A stretch of DNA of 63,301 bases, counting the filler, from Collodictyon triciliatum (taxonomy: Eukaryota): NCBI GenBank assembly GCA_043381765.1. It is 5 parts of 5 records of this genome, joined end to end, with 100 filler letters (N's around TTAATTAATTAA, not from the genome) between each part and the next. Parts side by side here need not be neighbours in the genome. Positions count along the whole stretch, not along the records: positions 1 to 14,748 come from JBHJMP010001780.1; 4 more parts are not named here. One strand, written 5' to 3'. Both the position numbers and the translations under genes were made by a program. The notes under the pieces were generated by a model. The model was not told the origin of the DNA. It saw nothing but the letters and a program-made list of their open reading frames with translations, and made no database searches. This document shows, piece after piece, positions 1-59,257 of the stretch; the stretch's first letter is position 1; each line of letters begins with the position of its first letter.

Positions 1-250
1 TTTTATTTATTTTATTTATTTTATTTATTTTATTTATTTTATTTATTTTATTTATTTTATTTATTTTATTTTATTTATTTTATTTTATTTATTTTATTTT
101 ATTTATTTTATTTTATTTATTTATTTTATTTATTTTATTTATTTTATTTATTTTATTTATTTATTTTATTTATTTTATTTATTTTATTTATTTTATTTAT
201 TTTATTTTATTTTATTTTATTTTATTTTATTTTATTTTATTTTATTTTAT
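1..250. repeat. (TTTA/TTTTA)n microsatellite, intronic
   Basis: Tandem TTTA/TTTTA units ending shortly before the AG acceptor at 271-272. Confidence 0.95.
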
Positions 251-1544: not shown

Positions 1545-1690
1545 CCACTTAAGTGTATTATTTACTAGAAGGGAATATACCATCTCTCGATTGGTAAACC
1601 TGGTTCGCCAGTATCCAAGGTCTCACCACTTTTTTCACAAGTGTCGTGTAGTGGTGAAGGCTGCCAGGAAAGACCCGACAGCCTGTTTTT
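1545..1690 (-). ncRNA. Candidate Fanzor omegaRNA (scaffold ~1690-1565 plus flank-derived guide ~1564-1545)
   Basis: Directly 3' of the Fanzor RuvC-III/stop there are four hairpins on the minus strand (1684-1658, 1657-1623, 1611-1600, 1596-1578), with G-U pairs valid only in minus-strand RNA and a GAGA tetraloop. The position matches known TnpB/Fanzor omegaRNAs. Boundaries are inferred. Confidence 0.65.
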
Positions 1691-3778
1691 TTAAAGAAAG
1701 TGTATGCATTCTTTTGGGGTAGGATTAAAAAAACCTATCTTGGGATATCATTAGCGCTGTTTAAGTCCCTTGTCAAGAATACACTGTGTTTGCTTTCTTA
1801 GTGATTGCATTCTTTACATATGAGACATTTATACAACTTTTTTTCGAGTTTGCTTTCAGTATTATATATTCCAGTTCCTTTTTCGCAGTTAAAACACATC
1901 TCGATGTTCTAAATTCATATACACTAACCGTTTCAAAACGTTTGGGTACTATTTTTCGGATTCCTCTTCCGATTGTTGCCATAAAATGGTTCATCTGAGA
2001 TTTTCTGCTCCAGCCTCCATACGCCAGTACAACATCCTTGCCAAATGTCTTTTCGATTCGGTCCATAAACAACGGTTCACTTCTTTTTTTTATCAGCATA
2101 CTGTCTCCATCTCATCTTTCGAAAAGTTCCTTGTTCATAAAATCTGGAAAATTCTACTGGTATCTTGATTTCATAGATACATATATTCGAAATTGTTCAT
2201 AATCGACCGTGCGTGAATTATGTTTACTCAGTTCTGTCTCTAAATCGACTAAAGATACTCTTGATGTCTCAAACTGCTGATTCTCTTCAAAAGTCACGGC
2301 ACCAAAAGAAATAGCACTTTGTAAATCTGTTGCCACGCATATCCCTGAATAATTGTACTCTACTTTTCTTTTTTTCTCGCGCAAGAGTATTGAGTGCCCC
2401 TAAATAACAAGGTTTGTTATCATGTCTTGTTTGGTGTGGCGCGTAACGTAATTTCTTAACTGCCTCATCCACCATGCAAACAAAATTAAACTTGCCTGCG
2501 TCCACTCAAACATTTTTTTTTTGCCGCTAATAAAGATAACTGCCCTTCGGAAAGTTCATCTATATAAACATATTCTTGAGTTTTTTTTTATTATATTTGG
2601 ATTTTGCATTTGAAATACGTTTCTTTTCAAACAATAATAACACCACCAAGCCGTCTGTTTGTATCATGTATTTAAAATTGTTGTCTGTTTGATGAAAACC
2701 CCTCTTCTTGATTTCAAAGAAATCATCCCATAGGGTCTCTTTGCATCCTGATATATTCTTCAGTAATGATGTTTTTCTAGTTAATACTAACAGACCTACC
2801 AAACATGCAGTATCTAGAGTAACATGACATGACATATTGGTAGTTCTTATAGGGATTGGTTGAAGCAGTTTGGCTCCAATGTCCTCAAAAATGAGACTCA
2901 TGTAAATCAGACATGGTATGTACTTCTTCGGATTGACTTTGACGTCATATTCGATACCATTTACAATATCGCTGGGAATAATATGATTCAAATGCGTTAT
3001 AGCCCATTCTTTATATTGTTTCGGTATTTCGAGTTTCTTGAAGGTGGCTTTTCTTATTTAACTTTCGTAACTCTGGCTTTTTAATAGCATCCGTAATATT
3101 CTCATCTCCAGGAACTGTTTGATTTATAAAGAGCATTAAACTTTTTACATAATGACCCTTAATATTTTTATGATAAGCTGCTAGCATTTGCTTCGCCAAG
3201 CACGGTAATACATGAGACAATCCAACCAACGGAATGCGTTCTTCTCGGGACAAAAAGGAATCGAAAATCATTGAGATAAAAAGCCATCATGTCTTTACTC
3301 ATTTCTGGATTTTTAAACTTGCGGGTCTACCTTGTGAAACTACTCCGACTGTCTTTAAAGCATACAAAAAAAAAAACATTTCATCGGTTGTTGGGAGTTG
3401 TTGTGATTTCAATATGTAACATCTTGCAAACAGAAAAGTGTCGGTAACCAAATTATGACATAACAAAACCGCATCGTTGATTTTGTAATAGTCATCCGGA
3501 TTCTTTACAATCGACTTTAGAGATGTTTTCATATTTCGATGGTCTGGTTTTACAGACTTCTGATTATCAGACTCGAGGCGTTTTCTTTTCTTCATCTGAA
3601 AGTCTTTGCTTTACCTTTTCCTCTAGAAAACTACCGAGTTTTCAATTTTAACAAAACTTTAGTCTATTAGTCAATATATATAACTGCATAAAATCAATTT
3701 ATGTAAAATTAAGCATCTACCGAGACTCTCAAAAATGTGCGCATTGTGGCAAACAAACACACAAAGTTTTTTAGGTGA
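1565..3778 (-). mobile_element. Non-autonomous Fanzor-carrying element with Helitron-type termini, copy 1 (2214 bp)
   Basis: Closely similar to 13240-14748, with homology starting at A|TCAC in both copies. The minus-strand 3' end is TACCAATCGAGAGATGGTA(hairpin)-TATTCCCTT-CTAG|T. No TIR seen. The 3' end rests on this single copy. Confidence 0.75.
1735..3595 (-). pseudogene. Fanzor1-type (TnpB-like) RNA-guided RuvC nuclease, ~620 codons, frameshifted
   Basis: Fragments in order: basic N-terminus MKKRKR; IQTDG..V; EYVYIDEL; RuvC-I VDAGKFNFVCMVD; ETELSKHNSRTVD; VVLAYGGWS; RuvC-II VYEFRTSR; Zn ribbon CFNC...CKEC (shifted frames); RuvC-III FLTRDLNSANDI. Confidence 0.88.
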
Positions 3779-4167
3779 TGTATCTTACAAGCTCAATCTG
3801 CGTGCGCCGAGAGGGAGAGAATAAAAAGAGTAAAAAATTGCTTAGTTGGGAGGCTGACACGGAAAAATGGAAAAAAGAAAGAAAAAATGCGCCCAGCACC
3901 CACCAGAAGAAAATTGAATGCAATGAAAAAAAGCGCTTACCTCTCTTGGGTGATGACTAAAAATCAACGTCTTGCGGCTAAGGAATAAATGCTTTTTTAA
4001 TTAGGAGAAGTGATGAAAAAATAGCGTATACGCGACCGTTGAGAAAGATATAAAGTGGAATTTATAATATATTATATCAAATTAACGTAAAAAGGGGTTA
4101 AACCATATATTTTTCTGGAAATGTAATAGAATCAAGCATCAGTTGTGCTACTTTACTAAAATGCCAA

Positions 4168-4788
4168 TTTATTCTTCCTTTCAATTTTGTGCAGGGCGGT
4201 GGAGATGTTAGCTTTGATTCGCTAGCCTTCTTTTGCGTGGACGATACTTGGTGGCCGGGTGGCGGAGAAGTAGTCGGCAATCAGGAATTGCATCCTGCAG
4301 TTTGGCCTGTAGCCTGAGTCTTGTGCTTGCATGAGAGAGACAAGGCGAGGTTGAATCTCTTTCTCAGTCTCTTTCCACATGTCTCTTCTCACAGGTTCTG
4401 AGTAGTAGAGAACGTGCAGGTGGCGAAGAAAGCTATTGAGGAAAGAGATTTGTATGATGTCATTCAACCTATTATCAGGAATGAGTGGCTGGTTATTGGG
4501 TCTCGCTTTGCGTGAGTATATGCGCGCTATCCACATAGTCCATAGCAAATGGCCTCGCGTCACTGCCCAGAATGTTCTTGCATCTGGACGCAGCTGTTGC
4601 AGAGGCCCAAATATCGCCTGGATTGGGCCAACAGCCGCAGCCGTCTTGAGTGCCAGTCGAAGAATCTCACCGGCTATTTCGCGCAGTGTTTGAGCGAAAG
4701 AAATTTTTGTGATGATTTTTTTTTTATTATTCTTCCTTTCAATTTTGTGCAGGATGGTGGAGATGTTGGCTTTGGTTCGCTAGCCATC
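4168..4788 (-). mobile_element. Two tandem 5'-truncated 3' ends of a putative non-LTR (L1/Tx1-like) retrotransposon
   Basis: Open minus frame FAQTLREIAGE...FWAVTRGHLLWTMWIAR...HAKEG* resembles a LINE ORF2 C-terminal W-x-x-W-x-x-R motif. The stop plus ~50 nt tail with an AATAAA-like signal is repeated at 4716-4788, there followed by an A10 tail. Confidence 0.5.
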
Positions 4789-7159: not shown

Positions 7160-7831
7160 TCATAGTAGGAGTACCGGGTTATCCTGAAGATAAAGCTCTT
7201 TCAGATTAGTCAGGTGTGATATTTCTAACGGCAGAGACGATATCGCATTCTTGTGCATCCAGATATTCGATATTCCCACCAAGTTGGATATTTGTTGAGG
7301 TATACGTGATATATAGCAGCAGGCAACACGAAGAACTTTAAGACTCATCAAAAAAGGTATTGGGGACATCGTCGATAATAAATTGAGATTCATGTTGAGC
7401 TGGATGAGATTTGTAAGACAAGATATTGGAGGCAACGAGGATAGCTGATTATCAGTCAAGTCGAGGTATCTAAGACCCGTTAAACACGATATCTCTTCTG
7501 GTATCGATGATAGTCGATTGGAAAGAAGGTTCAGGTGAGAGAGGCGAGTCAAGATCAATATTTCTCGAGGAAATAATGAGAAATCATTTTGATTTATGAA
7601 TAGCGCCGTGAGATTATTTAACCGACTTATTTCTGAAGAAATCGATGGCAGTTGGTTGAATCCGAGAATAAGTCCAGATATGTGGGTTAGGTGAAAGATA
7701 CCAAGGGGAACCGACGTAAAATTTCTGTGAATCAATCGTAGCTCTGTGTGATTACGAAGAGTGGCAATGTCAGGGTCCTCCGTCAGGATGCGAAGTTCTT
7801 CGAGGTGTTCAAGCTCGTTGGGCATGGCCAT
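7160..7831 (-). CDS. Leucine-rich repeat protein (223 aa, ~8 LRRs)
   Basis: Repeated LxxLxLxxNxLxxLPxxI units (e.g. LTGLRYLDLTDNQLSSLPP). May be the intact 5' part of a longer decayed gene. Confidence 0.85.
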   Translation of the reverse strand: MAMPNELEHLEELRILTEDPDIATLRNHTELRLIHRNFTSVPLGIFHLTHISGLILGFNQLPSISSEISRLNNLTALFINQNDFSLFPREILILTRLSHLNLLSNRLSSIPEEISCLTGLRYLDLTDNQLSSLPPISCLTNLIQLNMNLNLLSTMSPIPFLMSLKVLRVACCYISRIPQQISNLVGISNIWMHKNAISSLPLEISHLTNLKELYLQDNPVLLL

Positions 7832-7955
7832 GGAGATGAATTGGAAGGAAACTGGTATGGGCTCCGGGGCTGGCTGAATTAGCGTGTCTTTCGGCTAAGG
7901 TGCTTGCTTGGTGTTTTGTCCTCTGATAGTGCTGTGTGTGAGTATTTTAGAGCGG

Positions 7956-8461: not shown

Positions 8462-9649
8462 ATGAAACTAGATTGCGTGGTATGTCAGGATAGGTACAAA
8501 GATCCGCGCTTTCTTCAATGCGGTCATTCATTCTGCCTTGGGTGCCTTACAAACTGGTTCGCTCATGACAGTGCCTCAGCTTTACCGTGCCCAACATGCC
8601 GTCAGGAAACCAATATACCCGCCGGCGGCTGCTCACATCTCCCCCGAAATTATGCTCTGAATGATGCTTTAGAGTCTCCAGCCTCAGTCTCAGCCCCAGC
8701 CCCAGCTCTAATTCCTAGGCCACCTCCAGTCCATAGACCATCATCTTATCAATACCTTTCTGCGAAGGCAAAGAACCTTACAAAACTGATAAGAAGTCAC
8801 TCATCCCCGACACTCTTTATGTCTGTGATTTTTTCGCTATTCTGTGTCTGCGATAGGGCTGAGGTTATTTTATTTCTGGCTTTGGTTACATCCTTTGCCT
8901 TTCAGATCCGCTCTATCGTGTCCTCCACGACCGGGACAGGGGCCATTGTTCTCATTGAAATATGGATTTTGATTTGCTCCAGCGTGTTGTGGGTCCTACT
9001 TGCCTCCATGCTTATCATCATGGGTGGGAAAACTCTGATGATTACATTCCATTCGAGTGTTTTTTATTCATCAGCATCCGTACTTTCCTTTGGACTAGCG
9101 AAGCTACCTGCAGAGATTTATCGTTCACTTGATGTATTGGCCAGCGGAGGAGAGTACCCCTTGTACATCACCATAAACATAGCGAGTTTAATTTACGAAA
9201 ATATGTGGTATGTATCAAGGTTCGCCATGGAATATGCCCAAATAGCTTTCGAGTTAGTATTCAATGCGCTGGGAACAACTCTTTCTATTCTTTTCGAAAT
9301 TATTTACATCATATCTGCGACTTTGCTCCATATATTTCATGTTGGAATAGTCTATGTTCCGACGATGTTACAAATTCTCCATGATGTGACACTGTACATA
9401 ATATCGCCTCTCTGGTCTTTGTTGGTAACTTTGGTTTCATACACACCAACACTGACGCAATCCTTTTTCAACTTTGTCTTCTACATTTTTGGCCATTTGC
9501 CTTCGCTCGCATATATCGGATTTTCTGGATTTGTGGAATTCATACGATGGATTGTCGGGATGTATAACTTTGTCCTTTCAACATATACAGTAGCAAAGAC
9601 GTTGCTGGTGGCAATATTCTTTTCAGTAATGATTCGCTATGGCAACTAA
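8462..9649 (+). CDS. RING-HC (TRIM-like C3HC4) protein with multi-pass hydrophobic C-terminal region; putative membrane E3 ligase
   Basis: CVVC...DPRFLQCGHSFCLGC...CPTCR...LPRNYAL, then a Pro-rich linker and many hydrophobic segments; intronless 395 aa. Confidence 0.85.
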   Translation: MKLDCVVCQDRYKDPRFLQCGHSFCLGCLTNWFAHDSASALPCPTCRQETNIPAGGCSHLPRNYALNDALESPASVSAPAPALIPRPPPVHRPSSYQYLSAKAKNLTKLIRSHSSPTLFMSVIFSLFCVCDRAEVILFLALVTSFAFQIRSIVSSTTGTGAIVLIEIWILICSSVLWVLLASMLIIMGGKTLMITFHSSVFYSSASVLSFGLAKLPAEIYRSLDVLASGGEYPLYITINIASLIYENMWYVSRFAMEYAQIAFELVFNALGTTLSILFEIIYIISATLLHIFHVGIVYVPTMLQILHDVTLYIISPLWSLLVTLVSYTPTLTQSFFNFVFYIFGHLPSLAYIGFSGFVEFIRWIVGMYNFVLSTYTVAKTLLVAIFFSVMIRYGN

Positions 9650-10417: not shown

Positions 10418-10821
10418 GAGCCAGCATCTCAATGGAAATATTTTATCCCGCTTATAACGCCGCAACTTAAAAAAACGAATGTATTTTTCTATTCGCGAAA
10501 GCTTCGGCGTAGCATTTAATAGTGTAATTTTTTTTTTATAATTCTTTATTGGCACAAGTAAAGCAAACCTCAACGAGATACAATATCGTGGATAGATTGT
10601 TTTATACGAAGTGTTAACTGTCTGTATCATTTTGTTAGTCACTAGGCTTTGTGACTTCTTTTCTTGAGTAACATTCATTATACACGAATCACACGTGAAC
10701 GACAAAAATCTTTCATTTTGAAACGTTCACATATTCTTTTACGATTGCTTCGATTGGACGTCTCTTATTGTTATATTGTGCATCTATACCCACTCCCCTT
10801 TTAACACCATTTAGGTTGCCC

Positions 10822-11733
10822 ATGACCACGTCTCCAACAAACTCGCCGTTAGTCTGCAGCGTTTGCCTTGATTCGTACACTGACCCTCGCATGCTTTTAT
10901 GCGGTCATTCATTTTGTTTGCCATGCATCGAAAGGATGCACAAATCCACACGATCCAATTGGCTTCAATGCCCGAACTGTCGATTAATTATCCCAGTGCC
11001 TAAAAACAGTTGCAAAACTTTCCAAAAAAACCTTGCTCTTGTAGGAAATAACCAGGCTATCTTTAATAACAGAAACATATCCATAAGGCCTCTTTTATCA
11101 AACAGATGCTCGAGTGAGCCACGATTTCTTCATGAGATGTCCCTTCCGTCAGACGGGACTGAAAGTACCATCAAAAGCACCGGCGTCTCGGATAATGCTG
11201 CTTCGAATCGTTTGTCTCCATCACAAATTCAACACGAGTACCGCGAGCGCCTTCGCATCCAGTTTGAATATCATGGGATCAGCAGGAGCCCAAGTTCTTT
11301 TCAAGTTCGCGAACGTCAAGTGACACCTGCTGTAAATCGAAGACATGTTGCCCCCGTCGAGATTGTTGATGTTGATAATATTGTAATCAAGCTTCTTTTT
11401 TCTGTGATTGCTCTTACATCGGTGGTATCAAGCTTTTCACAAAGTAACCACGCATTTTGGTCTACGGCTTCATTACTGTTGTATCTAGTTTACTGTTCCT
11501 TCATTGCGATGAGAAGATGGGAAGTCAACCCATCAGCGTCCATATCCGACATCGGAAAAAAGATTTTGGTCTCCTCCGCTCTTTTGTTATGGTTTTCTCT
11601 GGTTCATGTACACAAGGTTCGGAATTACATACATTTCACTTCTCCTGAGAGCATAAAGGAAAGCCTCTGGGCCTTGTTTGGAGGCCATCACCACGCGCTG
11701 GTTGGCCTGTGGCAATACTTGTTCCCTGAGTGA
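10822..11733 (+). CDS. RING-HC protein with C-terminal transmembrane helices; paralogue-like neighbour of 8462-9649
   Basis: ATG at 10822; CSVC...DPRMLLCGHSFCLPC...CPNCR...FQKNLAL; about three hydrophobic helices near the C-terminus. Confidence 0.85.
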   Translation: MTTSPTNSPLVCSVCLDSYTDPRMLLCGHSFCLPCIERMHKSTRSNWLQCPNCRLIIPVPKNSCKTFQKNLALVGNNQAIFNNRNISIRPLLSNRCSSEPRFLHEMSLPSDGTESTIKSTGVSDNAASNRLSPSQIQHEYRERLRIQFEYHGISRSPSSFQVRERQVTPAVNRRHVAPVEIVDVDNIVIKLLFSVIALTSVVSSFSQSNHAFWSTASLLLYLVYCSFIAMRRWEVNPSASISDIGKKILVSSALLLWFSLVHVHKVRNYIHFTSPESIKESLWALFGGHHHALVGLWQYLFPE

Positions 11734-11791
11734 CGTTTCGACAGCGTCTGACACCAGCATGCAATAATTACATGCAATAAAAATTCAGAGT

Positions 11792-11913
11792 CTGTTTGTT
11801 TGTTTGTTTGTTTGTTTGTTTGTTTGTTTGTTTGTTTGTTTGTTTGTTTGTTTGTTTGTTTGTTTGTTTGTTTGTTTGTTTGTTTGTTTGTTTGTTTGTT
11901 TGTTTGTTTGTTT
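11792..11913. repeat. (GTTT)n microsatellite
   Basis: Perfect tetranucleotide tandem array. Confidence 0.95.
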
Positions 11914-13239
11914 GAAAAAAAATCCATGTTGATCTCATCTTTGCAATACGAATAAATGTGGTATCACAGAGACAAACGGAGTTGAGAGGAATAATTAACA
12001 ATAAAATAAAATAAAAAAACACAATAATTAAGAAAATATCTCATTTGCAGGGAAACAAGCACGCTGAAAGAGAAAAGAAGAGCACACTCTCCAGAAAATA
12101 ATATTAAACTGAGCTTCTTTCCTTCTTCTCCCAAATCACTACATTCTAAGCCAGAAAAAAAAAAACACGCAAGCGATCGGAAAGAAGGATCCCGAGAAGG
12201 ACGAGAACACCTACCAGGAGAACCGCCACAGCCCTGCCCCATGGGATGCCTACTGACTGTACGCAAACCGTACGCAAGCCGACAAAGTTGACCCAGAGAG
12301 CGAAAAGGTAACTTGACCGCATCCCTTGCAACACAGGTTATGCACCGAGACACACCGACGACCAGGACGCCGGCTGCCACCGACCCGTGAGTCAACAAAC
12401 GAGTAATAAGACGGAGCGAGCTCTTTGAAACTAATATTAATGATAAAAGAGGAATAAAAAAAGGCCTATCGAGCTCAAGCCATCGACCCACGGGTAGCAA
12501 GAGAACAAGAGACTCCTGAAGAAAGGGTTGATAGGCCTCAAGCTTCCGCTATCGACCGACGGGCAGCAAGATAAGTATGAATATACTGCTCGGTATTAGT
12601 CGCTCTGATTCATTCATCCGTTTCTTTTTTCTTTTTTCTTTTTTCTTTTTCTTTTTCTTTTTCTTTTTCTTTTTCTTTTTCTTTTTCTTTTTCCTTTCTT
12701 TTTCCTTTCTTTTTCCTTTCTTTTTCTTCAGTCTCATTCAGCTTGTAAACGAATAAACTTTATTACAAAGGTTGTGGCGAACTTAGTTTTATCCCTTTCA
12801 AGGTACACATCACTTTTTATACAACGAAAGTGTGCCCATATATAACAGTTTATGGCACAGACAACCATCGAATTAAATCTGGATTGACAAAGGCAGGAGC
12901 TTTGATGAATCCAAGACAGCACCTGAATAATATAATAGTGTGATTAGTATATACAATAAAAAAAATACTTAATAATCTCATTCTATTCACATAACAAATT
13001 TATATTTTATTTTCCATTTGATTCGCATTAAAATTCAAGATTACAAACAAGGTGTTACCTTGGCCCAGACAGAACCCACACCATAAACTTGCCACCAAAC
13101 ATGCATTTCAAAAAAGTATACTATTCACACTTGCGGTGGTAATCATGTTGTTTGGGTCGATATGTTGAATTTCAGTCGCAATGGCTATACGGCTGTCCTT
13201 TCGAACTCGCCGAATGGGCTCTCAGCGTTTTGTCTCAAA

Positions 13240-14748
13240 TCACTTCTAAAAAAAAAAAAAACTTTGTGTGTTTGTTTGCCACAATGCGCACATTGTGAGA
13301 GTCTCGGTAGATGCTTAATTTTACATAAATTGATTTTATGCAGTTTTATTATTTTTATCAAATTGACTGATTGACTGATGTTTTATTAAAATTTAAAACT
13401 CGGTAGTTTTCTAGAGGAAAAGGCAAAACAAAGACTTTCAGATGAAGAAAAGAAAACGCCTCGAGTCTGATAATATAAAGTCTGTAAAACCAGACTATCG
13501 AAATGTGAAAACATCTCTAAAGTCGATTGTAAAGAATCCGGATGACCATGACACAATCAACGATACGGTTTTATTGTGTCATAATTTGGTTACCGACACT
13601 TATCTGTTTGCAAGATGTTACATATTGAAATCACAACAACTCCCAACAACCGATGAAATGTTTTTTTTGTATGCTTTATAGATAGTCGGAGTAGTTTCAC
13701 AAGGTAGACCCGCAAGTTTAAAAATCCAGATATGAGAACCGACATGATGACTTTTTTATCTCAATGATTTTCGATTCCTTTTTGTCCCGAGAAGAACGCA
13801 TTCCGGTCGTTTGGACTGCCTCATGTATTACCGCACTTGGCGAAGCAAATGTTAACAGCTTATCATAATAATATTAAGGAACATTTTGTTAAGAGGTTCC
13901 TGTGCTTTATAAATCAAACAGTTCCTAAAGATAAGAATATTACGGAAGCCATTAAAAAGGCAGGGCTACGAAAGCTAAAAAAAAAAAATAAAGCCATCTT
14001 CAAGAAACTCGAAATACTGGAACAATATAAAGAATGGGCTACAACGCATTTGCATCGTATCATTCCCAGCGATATTGTAAATGGTATCGAATATGACGTC
14101 AAAGTCAATCCGAAGTACATTCCATGTCTGATTTACATGAATTGCATTTTTGAGGACATTGGAACCAAAAACTGTTTCAACCAATCTCTATAAGAACTAC
14201 CAATATGTCATGTCATATTACTCTAGATACTGCATGTTTGGTAGGTCTGTTAGTATTAACTAGAAAAACATCATTACTGAAGAATATATCAGGATGCAAA
14301 GAGACACTGTGGGATGATTTCTTTGAAATCAAGAAGAGGGGTTTTCATCAAAGAGACCACAGTTTTAAATACATGATACAAACAGACGGCTTGGCGGTGT
14401 CATTATTGTTTGTAAAGAAACGTATTTCAAATTCAAAATTCAAATATAATAAGAAAAAACTCAAGAATATGTTTATATAGATGAACTTTCCTAACAGCAG
14501 TTATCTTTATTAGCAACAAAAAAAATAGTTGTAGTGGACGCAGGCAAGTTTAATTTTGTTTGCATGGTGGATGAGGCATTTAAGAAATTACGTTACGCGG
14601 CACACCAAACAAGACATGATAGCAAATCTCTTGAAAATCACAAAATACTCTTGCGCGAGAAAAAAAGAAAAGTAGAGTACAATTATTCAGGGATATGCGT
14701 GGCAACAGATTTACAAAGTGCTATTTCTTTTGGTGCCGTGACTTTTGA
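13240..14748 (+). mobile_element. Fanzor-carrying element, copy 2 (5' two-thirds; truncated by assembly gap)
   Basis: Starts A|TCACTTCTAAAA..ACTTTGTGTGTTTGTTTGCCACAATG and is colinear with the reverse complement of 3778-2287. Confidence 0.85.
13442..14748 (+). pseudogene. Fanzor1-type nuclease, copy 2, frameshifted, 3' part in gap
   Basis: ORF pieces 13442-13681, 13837-14193, 14205-14480 and 14534-14748 match copy 1; includes RuvC-I KIVVVDAGKFNFVCMVD. Confidence 0.85.
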
Positions 14749-14792
14749 NNNNNNNNNNNNNNNNNNNNNNNNNNNNNNNNNNNNNNNNNNNN

Positions 14793-14804
14793 TTAATTAA
14801 TTAA
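14793..14804. other. Artificial scaffold linker TTAATTAATTAA inside N gap (also 29624-29635, 44412-44423, 59202-59213)
   Basis: Identical 12-mer with stops in all frames centred in similar-length N runs; contiguity across these joins is uncertain. Confidence 0.9.
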
Positions 14805-14889
14805 NNNNNNNNNNNNNNNNNNNNNNNNNNNNNNNNNNNNNNNNNNNNAAAAAAAAAAAAAAAAAAAAAATTTTTTTATAATTTTTTGG

Positions 14890-20205: not shown

Positions 20206-23200
20206 ATGTCCACTAACGAAGCCGCAAGCAGTCTGAGCGTGGAAGAATCCGTTGATCACATCACTAATGGGGCTAAAGAAGAGAACGGCGTAGCACCCTC
20301 ATCCGAGAATCCTTCTGTTGTAAACCAGAGCCCTGTTCGCAAATCTAGTATCCAGCGAGAACTTGGAGAGTTATCCGAAGGTTTATTTAGTACGAAGCCT
20401 TAGCTTTATTATGTATTGTTCTTTTCCTTGTCTCTTTGGTTTTGCTTGTTTTTTTTTTGTTTTTTTTTTGTTTTCTTTGTTTTTGTTTTGTTTTGTTCCT
20501 AGTGTTAGTTTTTAGTCTTTTTTTTTCTATATTACTGGGTGTCCACTTTCTTTTTGGGATCGCCATCGATTCTTCGAAAAGGAGATGGCCTTAATTATAT
20601 TGGTTTCAATTTGTCGGGCCTCATTATGATGATGTAATGGGACAGTGAAGTATTCCTGTATTTCGTAACTAACTTTACAAACATAGTGAATAAGCATCTT
20701 GATTTTCAAAGTATTTTCATAAATTCATTTTATCGTACTTTTTTTTTCTCTCTCTTAACATGAATACAGGCTTGGCCGGTCTCCCTGCTCTCCGAAAGCG
20801 AAAATCTGTTGAGTTATATTCTCCTGAACTCCCTCGTGAACCGACACCGCTAATTATCCAAAAGGTTTCTTCACAAAATCTATTAATACCCACTATGTAG
20901 AAGAAGGACTTTCCCAAACCACACCCGAAACCACAGGATATGATTTTGCACTCTATGATAATAAAAATTTCAGTATCAAGAATTTTACGCAATAGGGACT
21001 TGGAGAAAAGCTTGGAGACATCGAAAAGGGTATGTGTAATAGCGTAGTCCTTTTTAATTTTCTATATGTCGACTGTAGAGGGGCTCTGATGTAATATTAT
21101 GATTGCTTCTACACGCTCCATCTAACTGTTTTGTATTTCATGGGTCACTCTATTTTTTATGCTTTTCCCTCGCGCCATTAAGTCTTATTTGATACCAACC
21201 GACCTAAATCTTACCCAGCGGCCCAACACATTCGTGCTATATCACGCAATTCGAACATTCTAATGGATCTTCATAAAGTAATATTTGGAAAAGGATGCCC
21301 ATTGGTAGGTGCAACATACACATGTGCAGTGACTTTTTAACATAGTGCTGATCAAAATGAAGCTTTTCTTTTTTTCTTTTGATTTTCAGAACCAATCATG
21401 TATCTATTTTGTATTTGATTACATGGCCCAGTGTCATATCATGTTTTGATCGCATAAAGTAAATGTAATCAAATGAGTTTACCCAAACGTATGTGGTGAA
21501 TACTCCTAAAAATATAATTAAAATATTAGGCTAAACTGAAAGATAATCTCCTTAACTACTCTGGCGTGTCTGCAACTGAATCGGTTTGAATTTTTTTTTT
21601 TTACGGAGTTTTACGTGCTCCTAATGTCATATATTCATGATGTCAGCTGGTGGAGTGGCTAGAACCGCATAAACTATCGAAAGCACTTCATATTCCATAC
21701 ATATCCTTCTCCTAAACTTCAACTATTGTGTTTTATTGTTTCAATAGGCGAAGGAAAAGGACAAACTAACCAATCGTCTTTCAAAGCATACGAGGCCTGA
21801 AATTGTTGAGTTCATAGAAGCACTCGGTCTATCAAAGCAAGGAATTAAGGTGTAATTTGAAATCACCTGATTCCTTTAAACGATTAATTATGAAATGATA
21901 TCCTCCATTGTCTGTTTATTTGATTCCATAACCAACAAGGATAAATTGGGTCATGGCGATAGATACATATATGAAGGCCAATAACTTAGAATGGAGTTGT
22001 TGAACGAACTATATATAAACAACAGGATGAACTTGTTTCAAGACTTTCCGACTTTCTTGAGAAGCCTGGAGAAAATGCATACGTAAGCTAGAAATTGCTG
22101 TAGAGAGTATCATATCGTGCAGTATTTTGCTTTTAATTTACCATCATTTTGTTCAGAAAACTCCCTGAGAGAAAATAATAAACTGAACTAAAATTTTTCA
22201 ATAATTTCCTGTTTATCTGCCTCGTGTTTTTACATGGTTTATATTGGGATTTGCATCAAGAAGCCATATATGTGATCAAAATAGCTTACCTCTATCCTTG
22301 TGTCATTGTAATTATAAACATAGCACCAAACCCCAAAGAAACCAAAGAAAGCTGAGACGCCAGAGGAGAATGGACATGCCACATCTATTTCCAAGGCATT
22401 CTATTTACTTGATTCAGAATTCTCAATCCTTCGCACATTACGATACTCTTCTAGATCGATACTATTAGATGACAGAGGCTTATAAAGTCTTCTAGTACCC
22501 TTCTCTTCCTCGTTAAAAAAATATTTCAAAATGAACGCATGAGCTCTATATCAATACTAGTATTATAGTATCGCCTCTTTCTTTTGAAAGCAACCCCAAA
22601 CGAAGCCTACCTGAAAAACAGACGCAAAATCAACCATCAGTAAGATAATCAGTACCTTTCTCTAGGTACCAACCCCAAAGAAGAACACTCCCCCTCCAAA
22701 AGATACGAAAAGCTCCAAAGGTACCAAAGTTTCTGACGAATCAGAGGACAGCCCAAAGGATGAGAGAAAGAATGAGGCAAATGATGAAGCAAATGATTTA
22801 AAGGAAGAAACAAAGGATGAGCCAAAGAATCAGTCAAAAGACGATTCGAAAGATGAGCCGAAGGAATCTGGAAAGCACCGTAAGCTAGCTCGAAGAACTC
22901 CAAGCTCGTCCATTCTTGTACCCCTCTCAGAAGCTATCGCAGCTCTCACCGCTGAGGCCAAAGAGGCCACCGAAACAGCTGAACCAACAACCAAAAATGA
23001 GGAGGCAAGCCAGTCAAGTGCCAAAAATCATGATGCTCAGGAATCAGAGTCGAAAGGTGATGCCGAGCGAATGGTCGATGAAGAAGATGAGGCTAACGAA
23101 CAAAAAGTGAATGAACATAAGGTAGAGGATAATGCACTCCGTAAAGATGCTCCTTCTGAGGCTGAGGCTGAGGCTGATGCCGACGTTGCTAAGAAAGTAG

Positions 23201-23481
23201 AGACGAACGATGATGGGTCTACAAGAAAAGAGCCCTTAAGAAAGGAGTCGGCCGAGAAACCCACAGATAGTGTTTTCCCTCCAGATGAAGATATTGTAGA
23301 AAAAATCAAAGAGCTGATTCCCACCGTCGACTTGGAGTCAACCACCCCAAGGCAGGTCAAGGAGGCTCTTGAAAGGTTGTTTGGGGTACTGCTTGATTCC
23401 AAATCGGACTTTATTACACAAACCATCCGGACTCTTCTTTCGGAGGGCTCCGCGCTATCCCAAAGTGCCGCTCCACAATAG
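20206..23481 (+). CDS. DEK: DEK-like chromatin protein, multi-exon
   Basis: Exons encode RKRKSVELY, GTGEKLGDIEK, LMDLHKVIFG, LKDNLLNYSG and DELVSRLSDFLEKP (DEK central/SAP-like region), a charged linker, and C-terminal DEK_C PPDEDIVEKIKELIPTVDLESTTPRQVKEALERLFG. Some internal exon limits are approximate. Confidence 0.8.
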
Positions 23482-29517: not shown

Positions 29518-29679
29518 AAAAAAAAAAAGAATAAAAAAAAGAATAAAAAAAAGAATAAAAAAAAGAATAAAAAAAAGAANNNNNNNNNNNNNNNNNNNNN
29601 NNNNNNNNNNNNNNNNNNNNNNNTTAATTAATTAANNNNNNNNNNNNNNNNNNNNNNNNNNNNNNNNNNNNNNNNNNNN

Positions 29680-32799: not shown

Positions 32800-44250
<11,451 letters not shown>

Positions 44251-44708
44251 ATTTCCCTTTTTATTTTCTCTTTTCTTTTTTTTTTTTTTTACTTGAATCT
44301 TATAAAAGAATATAAAAATAATATTTAAAAAAAAAAAAAAAAAAAAAGGGAGTAATAAAATTTTTTTNNNNNNNNNNNNNNNNNNNNNNNNNNNNNNNNN
44401 NNNNNNNNNNNTTAATTAATTAANNNNNNNNNNNNNNNNNNNNNNNNNNNNNNNNNNNNNNNNNNNNTCCTTTCCTTTCCTTTCCTTTCCTTTCCTTTCC
44501 TTTCCTTTCCTTTCCTTTCCTTTCCTTTCCTTTCCTTTCCTTTCCTTTCCTTTCCTTTCCTTTCCATTCCATTCCATTCCATTCCATTGCTTTTCTTTTT
44601 CTTTTTCTTTTCCTTTCCATTTCATTCCATTGCTTTTTCATTTGTTATATAATATTTCAATAGCATGATAGTTTTTCGCTGTATGACTTCCACTCACACA
44701 AAACCAGT

Positions 44709-47087
44709 TTCAATCAAGTTGCAGATTTTTTCCAAGAGTCCGCACGCATTCGCAAAGCAACCAAGACACTGACTTCCCTAAACGACGGGAAGCAAATCGA
44801 CAACATCATCCGCCTAATGAAAGAAAAGAAGGCACACGCATCAGTCATCGAGCTGCACAGGACTCTAATCCGCATCTTCATCAAGAGATACCCGCTGGAC
44901 CATCCTGGGATTTGGAACTCGTGCGAGCAGATTGACAAAGTCCACCAGGACCAGAAAACCCACGAGGAAGCGATAGAGTTCTGGTCTGAAATGAATGCTT
45001 TGTTTATGCAAGGCCTCGGTTGGTCCCACGAGAGAACCCTGTCTTCATGCCTGGTGCTTTCTGCTCATTCTGCATCCATTGGGATTCAAAAGGAACCAGC
45101 TGAGTTTACCCGCGTCAGGGAGTTTATCCAGAGCGTTGTTCCCGAATACGATGCAAGCACCAAGTGGGAGCGAGACGCAGTCATTTGTCTTCTGTTTAGG
45201 ATAGTCTATCTGTCCAGGTTGGACGAGAGCCATGCAGAGTCATCCTCGATTGCAGCCACGATTCTCAACTTCATGAACGTGTCCTTCAGCAAAATGGACT
45301 TGACGGGAATCCGCATCCCGCGCGCCAATCTTCGCCATGCACACTTGGATGGAGCCGACTTTACCGGGGCGGATTTGACAGGGGTCGACTTTACAGATGC
45401 AACTTTGGGAGACTGCATTCTGGACAACACACACATGGGCGGCACCCGCTTCGGACTCGTTTGCAGCGAACTCAGGGGTCATATAAGAACAATTAATTGT
45501 GTGTGCATTTTTGAAGGGCCAAATGGAGTGAAGTGGATTGCTTCAGCTAGTGATGATAGACTAGTTAGCATTTGGGACGTGGCGACATGCGAGCTTGTTG
45601 CCGAACTCCGAGGCCATGTTAACACGGTGACAGCGGTCTGCTTTGTGGAAGGAGCCGACGGCAAGCGAGGAGTGTGCTCGGGCAGCAAAGACAAGACGAT
45701 TCGCGTGTGGGACGTGGAGCGACTCGCGCACACAAGGACGCTGCAGGGCCACACAGACTGCGTCAACACAATATGCAGCATCCGCGGGCCCAACGGCGAG
45801 GAGTGGATTGCATCGGGCAGCGACGACGGCTCCGTGCGGATCTGGGACTGGCTCAGCGGAGATCCGATTGCGATGCTGGCCGGCCACACTTGGAGCGTGC
45901 GAAGCGTATGCGCAGTGCCGGGCCCGGGCGGCGAGCCGTGGTTGGCTTCGGGCAGCACAGACAAGACTGTGCGCGTGTGGGACGTTGGCAAGCAGCGGCT
46001 GGTCCGGACTCTGCCCCAGCGGACGGCGTACGTCTATGCCGTGTGTGCGCTGCGCGGGCCGAGCGGCGAGTCGTGGCTTGCGGCAGGCGGGAATGACAGG
46101 TCCATCCGCGTCTGGGACGTTGACCAATCGAAGATGGTCAGAAGCTTTGATTGCACATCTGACTCCATTCGATGTCTTTCTCCTTTGTCAGCCGGTGGTG
46201 GTTGCTCATTTCTGGTTTCCGAATGTAAAGAAGGCGTTTTGGGTGTGTGGGACTTCAATGTCGGGTGCAAGGTGGCAGAATTAGTTGGCCACGAAGGCCG
46301 TATTCATCACATCGCTACACGGACCGAGCCGTGTGGCTATGCTTTGATTGCTTCTGTTGGTGATGACAAGACCATTCGGCTTTGGCGTGACCTTCAGACG
46401 AAATGGAGTACTAATTCTGTCACGGTTGACAGAATGCTTCGTATGGACGACAGTTCATCACATTTTCATTCCAGACAACAAGCGAAAGGATATTTAGTCA
46501 GGATATCAGATGCCTATGAAAGTAGAGCAATCCATAGACGAGAGTACATACGGATTCGAAACGTTTCAAATTTGAGTCTGTTCAACAAGATGTCCCTTTT
46601 TGCTCGCGGTGCAACCTCAAGCGATGGTGACTTGGTTCGATTTTGCTCTCGAGGGAAATGCTCTGTGGAACAAGAGGAGGATGCGCTTCGATACTTCGAG
46701 CATCTTCGTTCCATTTGTTTGCAAGGAAACGTACACGCTTTCGAATTATTAAAGAGTTTTGCAGAGACAGAATTTGCAGGGAAATTGCAATTGGAGGCTG
46801 CATCAATGGTGAGCCGCTTTTACAAAACCGGTCTTTTCTTGGAGTTAGATGTAAATAAACGTATTCAATGGATGGGAAAGGCTCATGATTTTGAGTCCCT
46901 AAAATTGATGGCACAGGCCGGGTCTGCTTCGGCTTTTGAAGTTTTAAAAAAGTATGGTTCTATCGAGCTGGATAACATGGAGAAAACAAAGATGGTTGCT
47001 CAGATGATATCACAGTGTTATGAATATGGTTGGGGTGTAGGCTCTGATGAAATCTTGTCAGCAAGGTGGAGAGAAAAGGGAATGTGA
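44709..47087 (+). CDS. Pentapeptide-repeat + WD40 beta-propeller protein with helical (Sel1-like) C-terminus; probably the last exon of a longer gene
   Basis: Frame is open upstream of ATG 44817 to an AG near 44708. Pentapeptides DLTGIRIPRANLRHAHLDGADFTGADLTGVDFT; ~7 GH...WD repeats; C-terminal ISQCYEYGWGVGSDEILSARW. Confidence 0.85.
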   Translation, partial: FNQVADFFQESARIRKATKTLTSLNDGKQIDNIIRLMKEKKAHASVIELHRTLIRIFIKRYPLDHPGIWNSCEQIDKVHQDQKTHEEAIEFWSEMNALFMQGLGWSHERTLSSCLVLSAHSASIGIQKEPAEFTRVREFIQSVVPEYDASTKWERDAVICLLFRIVYLSRLDESHAESSSIAATILNFMNVSFSKMDLTGIRIPRANLRHAHLDGADFTGADLTGVDFTDATLGDCILDNTHMGGTRFGLVCSELRGHIRTINCVCIFEGPNGVKWIASASDDRLVSIWDVATCELVAELRGHVNTVTAVCFVEGADGKRGVCSGSKDKTIRVWDVERLAHTRTLQGHTDCVNTICSIRGPNGEEWIASGSDDGSVRIWDWLSGDPIAMLAGHTWSVRSVCAVPGPGGEPWLASGSTDKTVRVWDVGKQRLVRTLPQRTAYVYAVCALRGPSGESWLAAGGNDRSIRVWDVDQSKMVRSFDCTSDSIRCLSPLSAGGGCSFLVSECKEGVLGVWDFNVGCKVAELVGHEGRIHHIATRTEPCGYALIASVGDDKTIRLWRDLQTKWSTNSVTVDRMLRMDDSSSHFHSRQQAKGYLVRISDAYESRAIHRREYIRIRNVSNLSLFNKMSLFARGATSSDGDLVRFCSRGKCSVEQEEDALRYFEHLRSICLQGNVHAFELLKSFAETEFAGKLQLEAASMVSRFYKTGLFLELDVNKRIQWMGKAHDFESLKLMAQAGSASAFEVLKKYGSIELDNMEKTKMVAQMISQCYEYGWGVGSDEILSARWREKGM

Positions 47088-48240
47088 CCTTTCAAGTAAG
47101 GATTTTGATCTGGAATCACTTTCTTTGAGAAAAAGGCGAGTTTATTAACAAAATGCTGGGGCTGTTACTCAGAGTCTTATATCCAACCCAGATAAGAAAT
47201 CTGTCGATTCAGGAAGGGATATGCCTCTTCGGAAAACTAAATAAAGTCGAAATTTTTTTTAACTCGAGCGCGGCGTTTACATCTTCTAAATGGTATCCAA
47301 CCTTTCGTTGCGCGAGGAATGGACAAGAAACCTTGCAAGTCAACCTATTGTTCGATAATAATCTTAAAAAAAGCATCCATTTTTGTAGTTAAAGACAGTA
47401 AGGCTGCCAAGCTAATCTATGGGGAAAATAATATATTTGAAAGTTGCAGATTTATTTGAGCAGAGATACCTCGTTGGAATCTGNNNNNNNNNNNNNNNNN
47501 NNNNNNNNNNNNNNNNNNNNNNNNNNNNNNNNNNNNNNNNNNNNNNNNNNNNNNNNNNNNNNNNNNNNNNNNNNNNNNNNNNNNNNNNNNNNNNNNNNNN
47601 NNNNNNNNNNNNNNNNNNNNNNNNNNNNNNNNNNNNNNNNNNNNNNNNNNNNNNNNNNNNNNNNNNNNNNNNNNNNNNNNNNNNNNNNNNNNNNNNNNNN
47701 NNNNNNNNNNNNNNNNNNNNNNNNNNNNNNNNNNNNNNNNNNNNNNNNNNNNNNNNNNNNNNNNNNNNNNNNNNNNNNNNNNNNNNNNNNNNNNNNNNNN
47801 NNNNNNNNNNNNNNNNNNNNNNNNNNNNNNNNNNNNNNNNNNNNNNNNNNNNNNNNNNNNNNNNNNNNNNNNNNNNNNNNNNNNNNNNNNNNNNNNNNNN
47901 NNNNNNNNNNNNNNNNNNNNNNNNNNNNNNNNNNNNNNNNNNNNNNNNNNNNNNNNNNNNNNNNNNNNNNNNNNNNNNNNNNNNNNNNNNNNNNNNNAAT
48001 TTTTTTGTCTTGATTACGAAATTATTCAGAGTATGTCTATTTTTACATGGGGTATTGTTTTGCCAAAAGCGTCCATTCAAGGCATATGACAAAAATAATG
48101 GCACTCATTTCAAATACTGTTTCGCGACCATCAGGAACCTCAACTGGAAATCCCTTATTAGAATTTTCCTATTAATTATTTTTCCAAATACAAACGATGC
48201 ATCGGGCATGTAAGACAGCCACTAAGATTCAAATCGAAGA

Positions 48241-54385: not shown

Positions 54386-55383
54386 TCAGTGAAGGCGGTA
54401 AACAGACGATATGTAGGATGGAATGAATTGTCGGATGTATTGCAAGAAGGCATCAATGGAGATGTGCGTTTCTTGCGGCCTTGAACTAAAGTATGCTTGG
54501 ACATTCTTTTCACAAATAATGGTATATGTTAGTTTAGATTTTTTCAAAAAAAAAAAGTGCATCAGAATGTAAATAAAATAAAATAAAGCAAAATTAAGTA
54601 AACGGATAAGTAAAAACCAAAAAGGAATAAAAAAAAATTATGTATCCAAAACTGAGCACGTTTATACAAAAATAAAAGTATTCCTACCATGAGAAGCTCT
54701 TGTGACTTGTTCGGTGGGACATTCGAGCGAGCCATCGCATCTGACACAAGCATGGCGAATTCATAAGGCGAGATAAAGTCGTCCTTGTTCGAATCGTAGA
54801 CTCTGAATATCAAAATACTACGAATGACACCAGTGGAACTCTGAAAATTATGGTCGGTGTTGTTGCGTAATGCCACCATCATAACCATAAAATCGCGTTC
54901 GCTGATATATCCATCGTTGTCCCAGTCCATGGAAGCAAACACAACATTACAGGCCATTATAACAATCTCAGACGCCTTCGATTCCAAAAGTACTTGGTAG
55001 AACTGAGTGCAATTCATCATCGAAATAGGTGCAGAGTTCCCAGGAATCACAGACGAATGTGCCTTAAACAGATTTGACAAGGCAGTAGCCTCATGTTGCT
55101 GAATGCCTGAGTCATAGTAAAAGGCGTTGACATTGGCTTCGTACATCTCACGTAAATTAGTCGGGATTGAGATCGGTGCTGTGGTTGCGATCATAGGAGG
55201 ATTTGGATGTGGAATTGATATTGTGATGTCTGGGTCAAATGAAGAGCGCCGATTAGGAAAGGGAGGAGGCACATATGTTGTTTGTTGGTCAAGTGAGTAA
55301 AGGGGGGTTCCAGGAGCTGATGACGGTTTTGTATATTGAGATGGCCTTGAATGATTCAAAGAAGGGAGTTGTAAAAAGGACGT

Positions 55384-55477
<94 letters not shown>

Positions 55478-59037: not shown

Positions 59038-59257
59038 TCATTTTCAACGAGACATTACATAAAATAAACATAAAATAAACATAAAATAAACATAAAATAA
59101 ACATAAAATAAACATAAAATAAACATAAAATAAACATAAAATAAACATAAAATAAACNNNNNNNNNNNNNNNNNNNNNNNNNNNNNNNNNNNNNNNNNNN
59201 NTTAATTAATTAANNNNNNNNNNNNNNNNNNNNNNNNNNNNNNNNNNNNNNNNNNNN

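What the first reader, a model, noticed from the sequence alone, without database searches (positions are those of the whole stretch)
1565..1596. Helitron-type termini on the Fanzor element (A|TC ... hairpin-9 nt-CTAG|T), with no TIR or transposase
Seen: homology between the copies begins at ATCAC (copy 1 gatacA|TCACCTAAAA at 3778; copy 2 ctcaaA|TCACTTCTAAAA at 13240). Copy 1 ends in a 19-nt hairpin, 9 nt, CTAG, then T. Established: Helitrons start TC, end CTRR after a subterminal hairpin and insert between A and T without a TSD; Fanzor-Helitron associations have been reported in other eukaryotes. Inference: this is a non-autonomous Helitron whose only cargo is the Fanzor system, and the rolling-circle terminator hairpin may double as the last omegaRNA stem, fixing the scaffold/guide junction at CTAG.
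Basis: partly seen in the sequence, partly recalled or inferred. Interest (0 to 1): 0.85.

Follow-up and report, generated by a model that had tools for sequence, protein, structure and literature searches.

The report
Decayed Fanzor element; Helitron ends unproven
This is the tail end of a broken copy of a small mobile element whose only gene is a Fanzor RNA-guided nuclease; its ends spell Helitron-like letters, but the other copies available do not confirm that it is a Helitron.

Summary
The letters are exactly as described: copy 1 (1565-3779, minus strand) reads A|TCACC at its start and hairpin, 9 nt, CTAG|T at its end. Copy 2 (13240-14748, plus strand) shares the start.

The gene is a SpuFz1-like Fanzor1, frameshifted in both copies. 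There is no TIR and no transposase. The last ~226 nt fold far better than shuffles (z -3.4), as expected of an omegaRNA scaffold.

**For the Helitron reading:**
- ATC plus CTRR|T near an element's ends is rare by chance, about 1 in 1000.
- Relatives in four metagenome runs never cover DNA beyond either proposed end.

**Against it:**
- The hairpin is no better than shuffles (45 of 200).
- The 3' end rests on one copy, and no relative covers 1565-1571, which includes CTAG.
- The only two visible contigs that cross the 5' junction diverge at 3773, just upstream of TAAAAAAC, so they lack TCACC.
- A related two-copy locus (L001) has neither TC nor CTRR ends.
- No RepHel is in the window, and no genome was available.

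TA lies at all four visible 5' junctions and at the 3' end, so a TA-bounded reading is about as likely. Fanzor cargo in non-autonomous Helitrons is already published. Helitron about 0.3; interest modest.

The parts
1565..3779 (-). Copy 1 of the Fanzor1 element at its widest reading (A|TC start to CTAG end). The range covered by relatives is about 1572 to about 3773.
13240..14748 (+). Copy 2, the 5' 1.5 kb only. It is cut by the scaffold end (linker of N44, TTAATTAATTAA, N44).
1681..3595 (-). SpuFz1-like Fanzor1 pseudogene. It has at least 3 phase changes and several in-frame stops. RuvC-type D at 2502-2500, E at 1916-1914 and D at 1767-1765, placed by alignment to relatives. Homology to relatives' C-termini ends near 1681.
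1565..1790 (-). Strongly structured tail, the probable omegaRNA scaffold. Helices at 1684-1674/1668-1658 (11 bp), 1657-1650/1630-1623 (8 bp), 1611-1608/1603-1600 (4 bp) and 1596-1589/1584-1578 (7 bp with a bulge, GAGA loop). A long-range helix joins 1771-1766 to 1574-1569.
1578..1596 (-). It is weak as DNA and is the last stem-loop of the RNA fold.
1565..1568 (-). CTAG, the proposed Helitron 3' terminus. It contains the TA of the rival reading (1567-1566). No relative's contig covers it.
3773..3779 (-). 5' junction ATCACCT. A|TC is at 3779|3778. T3773 and A3772 form the TA next to which two metagenome contigs diverge.
1545..1564 (-). 3' flank, which would serve as the omegaRNA guide if the element ends at 1565-1568. 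This is inferred.
   Evidence: inference from the TnpB/Fanzor paradigm

Best explanation
Window 1565-1596 is the last stem-loop and linker of the omegaRNA-like tail of a decayed, non-autonomous SpuFz1-like Fanzor1 element. Copy 1 is at 1565-3779 on the minus strand. Copy 2 is at 13240-14748 on the plus strand.

Shown:
- The only gene is a Fanzor1, broken by frameshifts and stops in both copies.
- There is no TIR and no transposase.
- The last ~226 nt fold far better than shuffles.
- Relatives in metagenomes cover about 1572 to about 3773 and nothing outside.

Inferred from the TnpB/Fanzor paradigm: a transcript running through the tail into the 3' flank gives scaffold plus guide. An intact Fanzor supplied in trans would cut the element-free version of the site. 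The element itself must be moved in trans.

The machinery that moves it is unresolved. My odds are Helitron-type rolling circle about 0.3, a TA-bounded type about 0.35, and something else about 0.35. The confidence given here is for the class-agnostic identity only.
For: Fanzor identity:
- The 112-aa piece 1773-2111 finds 363 proteins at E<=1e-3.
- 6 of 6 full-length relatives hit Cas12f1-like TNB PF07282 at E<=0.01, and 2 of 6 reach the cut-off.
- The closest full-length relative, P0003 (634 aa), aligns over residues 14-607 with SpuFz1 (8gkh) at E 9e-37.
- tblastn maps P0003 residues 1-608 onto 3595-1684.

Decay:
- Both copies show phase changes and stops.
- Relatives restore the frame at 3252 (X1 58.1 of 58.1 depth) and at 1902 (X1 19.3 of 19.3).

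Tail:
- RNA fold -60.9 kcal/mol, z -3.44, 0 of 200 shuffles as good; helices listed.
- Relatives' proteins end opposite about 1681, leaving about 115 nt to the element end. SpuFz1 has an 80-nt region plus a 30-nt IR (passages read, PMC10432273).

Bounds: zero depth at 1390-1571 in 4 of 4 runs. Depth in the 5' bin implies cover to about 3765-3774.

No TIR.
Against: - No RNA data, so the omegaRNA is inferred from structure and position only.
- No Rfam match.
- The single-sequence fold has no covariation support. The only hint is one partly visible compensatory change in helix 1611-1600 in one X3 contig.
- The exact 3' boundary is not fixed, because relatives stop at or before 1572.
- The canonical Helitron letters are unlikely by chance. 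A class-agnostic reading leaves them unexplained.
Confidence: 0.75

Rival explanations
1. The element is a non-autonomous Helitron1 (5' TC, 3' CTAG, inserted between A and T, no TSD). Its only cargo is Fanzor plus omegaRNA, it is moved by a RepHel elsewhere in the genome, and its subterminal hairpin doubles as the last omegaRNA stem.
For: - Both window copies start A|TC. Copy 1 ends hairpin, 9 nt, CTAG|T.
- Chance of ATC is 1.8%. Chance of CTRR|T within 20-100 nt is 6-27%.
- No TIR.
- No relative covers DNA beyond either end.
- Fanzor cargo in non-autonomous Helitrons is documented: PMC3627910 (sections and passages read) and PMC10530073 (passages read).
Against: - The hairpin is weak: 45 of 200 shuffles fold as well.
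- The 3' end is seen in one copy. No relative's contig covers 1565-1571 in 4 of 4 runs.
- The only 2 contigs shown crossing the 5' junction diverge at 3773 and lack TCACC. This is from 19 loose-end rows shown, with 119 not shown.
- The related L001 elements, whose bounds are set by two copies, begin at an A-run and end ...AATCARTA. Their homology runs beyond an internal CTAG.
- No Rep or helicase domain in 16 of 25 ORFs of 180 aa or more. The other 9 are overlapping frames of the WD40 ORF or span an N run.
- No Helitron2-type asymmetric TIR.
Confidence: 0.3
2. TA-bounded element. The family begins right after a TA (TA|AAAAAAC) and ends ...CCCTTC|TA. The TA would be either a 2-bp target duplication, as in SPu-1 (here without the 30-nt IRs), or the crossover core of a tyrosine or serine recombinase element (Crypton-like or IS607EU-like). 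The TA and preceding letters would serve as the TAM.
For: - TA precedes the A-run at all 4 visible 5' junctions: copy 1, copy 2 and 2 X2 contigs. The X2 contigs diverge exactly there.
- TA lies at 1567-1566 at the 3' end.
- L001 copy B is bounded TA...TA, and 3 of 4 L001 ends abut TA.
- The nearest characterised relative, SPu-1/SpuFz1, has TA duplications, a conserved CA before them and TAM CATA: PMC3627910 section 5 and PMC10432273 passages.
- Cryptons lack TIRs and share a short repeat at both termini (PMC13565253, passages).
Against: - Copies 1 and 2 share ATCAC upstream of the TA. I put a shared 5-mer this close at about 7% by chance (my own estimate from base frequencies, not a tool result).
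- No TIR, so it is not Tc1/mariner or SPu-1-like in the strict sense.
- TA is common in 35% GC DNA.
- Relatives do not cover 1566-1571 either.
- The 5' motif likeness to L001 is not significant (91 of 1000 shuffles).
- L001 copy A has no TA at its 5' end.
Confidence: 0.35
3. The two window copies are a local inverted duplication on one 14.7-kb scaffold rather than independent insertions. Their shared 5' edge (ATCAC) would then mark a duplication breakpoint or co-copied flank, not the element's terminus. The family is still a mobile element.
For: - Both copies lie on the same scaffold, 9.5 kb apart, inverted, with 5' ends facing each other.
- Metagenome junction contigs lack ATCAC.
Against: - A breakpoint only 6-8 nt from the element end would be a coincidence.
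- The copies differ by 9% and by indels, as old independent copies would.
- Copy 2's 3' side is missing, so shared 3' flank cannot be checked.
Confidence: 0.1

Closest known systems
SPu-1 / SpuFz1 of Spizellomyces punctatus (Fanzor1)
   Same: An element of about 2.1-2.2 kb with one ORF of about 630 aa and no transposase inside. The closest full-length relative aligns end to end with SpuFz1. About 110 nt lie between the stop and the element end and carry the omegaRNA. TA lies at the junctions.
   Different: SPu-1 has 30-33-nt inverted repeats. None is detectable here. The window copies are pseudogenes.
CRe-1/2/3 of Chlamydomonas reinhardtii (Fanzor1 in non-autonomous Helitron2)
   Same: A Fanzor-only cargo in a transposase-less element, with a conserved structured RNA in the 3' UTR.
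   Different: CRe elements have introns, asymmetric terminal inverted repeats, two hairpins and variable TSDs, and their ends match verified Helitrons. None of this is seen or testable here.
Canonical Helitron1
   Same: 5' TC, 3' CTAG, A and T flanks, a subterminal hairpin 13 nt from the end, no TIR and no TSD, all in the one complete copy.
   Different: The hairpin is AT-rich, bulged and no better than shuffles. The termini are not corroborated by other copies, and no RepHel partner is known.
IS200/IS605 TnpB-omegaRNA
   Same: A nuclease gene followed by a scaffold RNA that reads out over the right end into a flank-derived guide, with no TIRs.
   Different: This is a eukaryotic Fanzor1 with no TnpA, and the target motif is not established.
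Crypton elements carrying Fanzor
   Same: No TIR, and a possible short repeat (CTA or TA) at both junctions.
   Different: No tyrosine recombinase is present, and the repeat is only 2-3 nt.

Membership tests
Fanzor1 (TnpB-family RNA-guided nuclease) | Sequence homology to characterised Fanzor1 proteins across the whole length | tested here: met
   P0003 against SpuFz1 8gkh gives E 9e-37 over residues 14-607. P0003 maps onto 3595-1684. The window piece hits PpFz1 at E 0.0011.
Fanzor1 (TnpB-family RNA-guided nuclease) | RuvC D..E..D motifs and a zinc finger, in an intact ORF | tested here: inconclusive
   The motifs VDAGKFN, VYEFRTS and TRDLNSA align to relatives. CxxC...CxxC is visible only in a shifted frame. 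The ORF is broken in both copies, so these are pseudogenes.
Fanzor omegaRNA | Structured non-coding RNA at the 3' end, reading into the flank | tested here: inconclusive
   Fold z -3.44, 0 of 200 shuffles as good. No expression data, no Rfam family and no covariation set.
Helitron1 | 5' terminus TC, shared by copies | tested here: inconclusive
   2 of 2 window copies have it. 0 of 2 visible metagenome junction contigs do; they diverge at 3773.
Helitron1 | 3' terminus CTRR, shared by copies | tested here: inconclusive
   CTAG is present in the only complete copy. No relative covers 1565-1571 and none goes beyond.
Helitron1 | Stable subterminal 3' hairpin | tested here: inconclusive
   A hairpin is present 13 nt from the end, but it gives -2.6 kcal/mol and 45 of 200 shuffles fold as well.
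Helitron1 | Insertion between A and T without TSD, shown by an empty site | not testable with these tools
   No genome is held. No empty site is in the window.
Helitron1 | Autonomous RepHel element with the same ends | not testable with these tools
   No genome. No Rep or helicase in 16 of 25 long window ORFs.
Helitron2 | Asymmetric terminal inverted repeats and a 5' hairpin | tested here: not met
   No inverted match between the ends above shuffles. The 5' end does not fold: z +0.9.
SPu-1-like / Tc1-mariner-like | Terminal inverted repeats with TA duplication | tested here: not met
   TA is present at the junctions, but there is no TIR.
Crypton-like / IS607EU-like | Recombinase partner and a short shared core at both junctions | tested here: inconclusive
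   CTA or TA is present at both junctions of copy 1. The partner is not testable.

The most novel reading that the evidence does not exclude
The window family and the L001 family would belong to an undescribed class of about 2.2-kb eukaryotic elements. These carry only a SpuFz1-like Fanzor1 and its omegaRNA, have no TIRs, start at an A-run next to a TA and end next to a TA. They would move by a mechanism that is neither Helitron nor DDE, for example an IS200/605-like single-strand route or a Fanzor-dependent one.
Probability: 0.15. Interest if true: 0.7.

Novelty: new member of a known kind. Interest (0 to 1): 0.3.

Why it matters
If the Helitron reading were confirmed, it would add a SpuFz1-type Fanzor1 to the known Helitron-borne Fanzors. 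It would also give a concrete case in which the rolling-circle stop site sets where the guide begins, which bears on how Fanzors help single-strand transposons. If the ends are instead TA-bounded without inverted repeats, the element joins the unclassified Fanzor carriers whose way of moving is unknown. Either way, these two copies are dead and the general association is already in print, so the value is modest until a genome-wide set of copies is aligned.

Tried and rejected
- Pfam on six ORF fragments of copy 1: nothing meaningful.
- IMG/VR: a protein scan and two DNA patterns gave no relatives.
- A GTDB genome pattern scan gave one hit, L003, with no other similarity to the window. About one hit is expected by chance from my estimate of the collection size.
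- The JGI metagenome scan gave only distant relatives, L001 and L002. L002 is single-copy and was not used further.
- No sequencing run held half or more of the sampled words. Four metagenome runs held small shares, and parts without cover prove nothing by themselves.
- Search for other carriers of the same termini in the window: none. The 3-mismatch hit at 42764-42780 has an unrelated context.
- Protein search with the open frame 1561-1734 to catch ORFs that cross the 3' boundary: no candidates.
- Rfam: no family.
- DNA alignment of window ends with L001 ends: not meaningful. The 5' motif likeness TAAAAA(G)ACTTT is reached by 91 of 1000 shuffles.
- TAM inference from the SpuFz1 contact residues, done by eye on the alignment: R96 is conserved, but Q129, Q130 and N133 are not conserved in P0003, so no TAM can be inferred.
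- Introns as the cause of the frame changes: rejected. Copy 2 reads through where copy 1 is shifted, and relatives restore the frame by 1-nt changes.

Full report
**What is there**

On the minus strand, copy 1 begins gatacA|TCACCTAAAAAAC, with T at 3778. It ends with the 19-nt hairpin TACCAatcgagagaTGGTA (1596-1578), nine bases (1577-1569), CTAG (1568-1565) and T (1564). Copy 2 on the plus strand begins ctcaaA|TCACTTCTAAAA, with T at 13240.

blastn of copy 1 against the window finds only these two copies. They share 91.0% identity over 1507 columns, 3772-2287 against 13256-14748. Upstream of the shared ATCAC the flanks are unrelated.

Copy 2 stops at 14748 because the scaffold stops. The window is a chain of five pieces (14748, 14731, 14688, 14690 and 4044 bases) joined by N44-TTAATTAATTAA-N44 linkers. 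Both copies therefore lie on one 14.7-kb scaffold, inverted, 9.5 kb apart. The 3' end is seen only once.

**The gene**

- The 112-aa frame 1773-2111 finds 363 proteins at E<=1e-3 among 1.84 billion representatives, the best at 47-53% identity.
- Six of six full-length relatives hit the Cas12f1-like TNB domain at E<=0.01. Two of six reach Pfam's cut-off.
- The closest full-length relative, P0003 (634 aa), aligns over residues 14-607 with Spizellomyces punctatus Fanzor1 (8gkh) at E 9e-37. It also hits Parasitella Fanzor1 (7e-34) and Guillardia Fanzor1 (7e-16).
- tblastn lays P0003 residues 1-608 on 3595-1684. There are at least three phase changes and several in-frame stops in copy 1, and likewise in the 1.5 kb of copy 2.
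- These are not introns. Copy 2 reads through where copy 1 shifts. Metagenome relatives differ by single bases that restore the frame: one base fewer at 3252 (X1 58.1 of 58.1 depth; X2 34.8 of 49.7; X3 3 of 3), and an added G after 1902 (X1 19.3 of 19.3; X2 7.11 of 12.8).
- Both window copies are therefore pseudogenes or carry assembly errors, of a SpuFz1-like Fanzor1.
- The element holds nothing else. Pfam found no Rep or helicase in 16 of the 25 window ORFs of 180 aa or more. The other nine are overlapping frames of the WD40 ORF or span the N run at 47484-47997.

**The tail**

Relatives' proteins end opposite about 1681. That leaves about 115 nt to the element end. SpuFz1 has an 80-nt region plus a 30-nt IR (passages of PMC10432273).

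As RNA, 1565-1790 folds at -60.9 kcal/mol, z -3.44, with 0 of 200 shuffles as good. The helices are listed under parts. The nine-base spacer pairs in the minimum-energy fold with 1771-1766.

As a DNA hairpin it is weak, at -2.6 kcal/mol, and 45 of 200 shuffles fold as well. Rfam has no match.

One X3 contig that runs on as a loose end before 1630 is still about 70% alike by my own letter count. It shows what looks like a compensatory change in helix 1611-1600, but only part of the helix is visible.

**Are the ends real?**

No genome is held, so I used other sources. The element's DNA occurs only as small shares in four freshwater or wastewater metagenome runs. At 80% likeness, 151, 140, 11 and 1 contigs were laid from X1 to X4. 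For X1, 10/19/50/72 contigs fell in the classes 99+, 95-99, 90-95 and under 90%.

Depth is zero in bins 1390-1480 and 1481-1571 in 4 of 4 runs. It is 40.7, 16.4, 1.34 and 0 in bin 1572-1662.

At the other end, depth falls from 54.6, 50.8 and 0.99 (bin 3665-3755) to 5.94, 10.3 and 0.37 (bin 3756-3846). That corresponds to cover up to about 3765-3774. Beyond that it is 0, 1.83, 0, 0, and then 0 in all runs.

The repeat family therefore spans about 1572 to about 3773. Equally, no relative covers the last seven bases CTTCTAG or the first five, TCACC.

Of the 19 loose-end rows shown (119 are not shown), the only one at the 5' junction is X2 at 3773. It comes from two contigs whose run-on parts agree only 0.62, which for two contigs means about a quarter of sites agree, so they look like two different flanks. 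They share T3773, A3772 and the A-run, then diverge, so they lack TCACC.

**Chance**

In this window ATC has frequency 1.8%. CTRR|T occurs at 0.31% of positions, giving 6% within 20 nt and 27% within 100 nt. 15% of such sites have a hairpin of 5 bp or more upstream. In a structured RNA tail a hairpin is expected anyway.

The letters alone are therefore a 1-5 in 1000 coincidence, and that is the real strength of the Helitron reading.

**Against the Helitron reading, and the rival**

There is no TIR: 232 of 500 shuffles match the observed score. That rules out DDE-type carriers and Helitron2-type asymmetric repeats.

TA lies at all four visible 5' junctions and at 1567-1566 at the 3' end.

The one related locus with two copies is L001. 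It holds two tandem Fanzor1 genes with 79% nucleotide identity, and its protein is 40% identical to the window piece in the best segment.
- Homology between its copies starts at an A-run (GGG|AAAAAAG and GTT|TAAAAAG) and ends ...AATCARTA.
- It has no TC start and no CTRR end.
- Homology continues past an internal CTAG.
- Three of four ends abut TA.

Its 5' motif resembles the window's TAAAAAACTTT, but not significantly (91 of 1000 shuffles).

SPu-1, the nearest characterised element, has TA duplications, a conserved CA before them and TAM CATA.

The weak point of the TA reading is the ATCAC shared by the two window copies. I put that at about 7% by chance from base frequencies, which is my own estimate. 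It could also come from co-copied flank or a local inverted duplication.

**Literature**

- Fanzor1 in non-autonomous Helitrons (CRe-1/2/3, Helitron2) was described in 2013 (PMC3627910; abstract, sections 5, 7 and 12, and passages read).
- Non-autonomous Helitron ends around Fanzors, and a structured 3' RNA in the Chlamydomonas case, were reported in 2023 (PMC10530073, passages).
- Saito et al. draw the parallel with HUH transposons (PMC10432273, passages).
- A 2026 review discusses Helitron, Crypton and IS607EU carriers (PMC13565253, passages).
- Two full-text searches found 14 and 4 papers. In the passages I read, none states that a Helitron terminator hairpin serves as the last omegaRNA stem. 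I did not read those papers in full, and supplements were closed.

**Verdict**

The flagged 32 bases are best read as the last stem-loop and linker of the omegaRNA-like tail of a dead, transposase-less, TIR-less SpuFz1-type Fanzor1 element (confidence about 0.75).

Whether that element is a Helitron is open. My odds are about 0.3 for Helitron, about 0.35 for a TA-bounded type and the rest for something else. These are my own weighing of the results above, not a computed posterior.

The dual-use hairpin idea is untested. Interest is modest, because the association is known and the decisive data, a genome-wide set of copies, are not available here.

Noticed in passing
window 14749-14848, 29580-29679, 44368-44467, 59158-59257: The window is not one contiguous stretch. 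It is five scaffolds (14748, 14731, 14688, 14690 and 4044 bases) joined by N44-TTAATTAATTAA-N44 linkers, and most break in low-complexity A/T runs. Features in different pieces are not physically linked.
   Followed up: partly
window 3252, 1902, 2156: Metagenome relatives differ from the window by single-base indels that restore the Fanzor reading frame. Intact family members therefore probably exist in freshwater samples, or the window assembly has homopolymer errors.
   Followed up: partly
window 2031-2184 and 2214-2391: One X3 contig (154 nt) and one X4 contig (178 nt) are identical to the window. The X4 contig then continues with copy 2's version of a roughly 24-nt patch (about 2397-2420) where copy 1 differs. 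The organism or a very close relative occurs in freshwater and wastewater metagenomes.
   Followed up: no
L001:400-2370 and L001:2573-4540: Two tandem SpuFz1-like Fanzor1 elements on a metagenome contig, with apparently intact ORFs (548-aa P0103 at 100%). Their 3' tails keep two stems through compensatory changes (CCTGGCCA/TGGCTAGG against CCTAGCCA/TGGCTAGG). An inverted 33-nt fragment of the Fanzor 3' coding region lies just upstream of copy A.
   Followed up: partly
window 1561-1734 and 1568-1690, minus strand: Two reading frames stay open through the whole tail (58 and 41 codons). In one of them the stop codon is the TAG of the terminal CTAG. This may be chance in a G+C-richer structured region.
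   Followed up: partly
window 8462-9649 and 10699-11733: Two paralogous RING-finger ORFs lie between the two Fanzor copies, with an LRR ORF at 7160-7894. The two Fanzor copies face each other with their 5' ends across this 9.5-kb block.
   Followed up: no
window 44664-47087, 54562-56955, 22666-23481, 1-546: Long intron-free ORFs: a WD40 propeller with pentapeptide repeats, a calcineurin-like phosphatase with EF-hands, a DEK_C protein and a TPR_10/TPR_12 fragment. These suggest a eukaryote with few introns. The taxon was not determined.
   Followed up: no
window 1-250, 11790-11922, 12620-12720, 61065-61376: Simple repeats: (TTTATTTTA)n at the start of the window, (GTTT)n, (CTTTTT)n and an 8-nt period array.
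   Followed up: no
window 4169-4230 and 4727-4788: A 62-nt direct repeat, 92% identical, 558 nt apart, just beyond the 5' flank of copy 1.
   Followed up: no
window 4059-4096: A 38-nt stretch is matched by contigs in X1 and X2 that are otherwise unrelected on both sides, with the same run-on letters in both runs. Meaning unknown.
   Followed up: no
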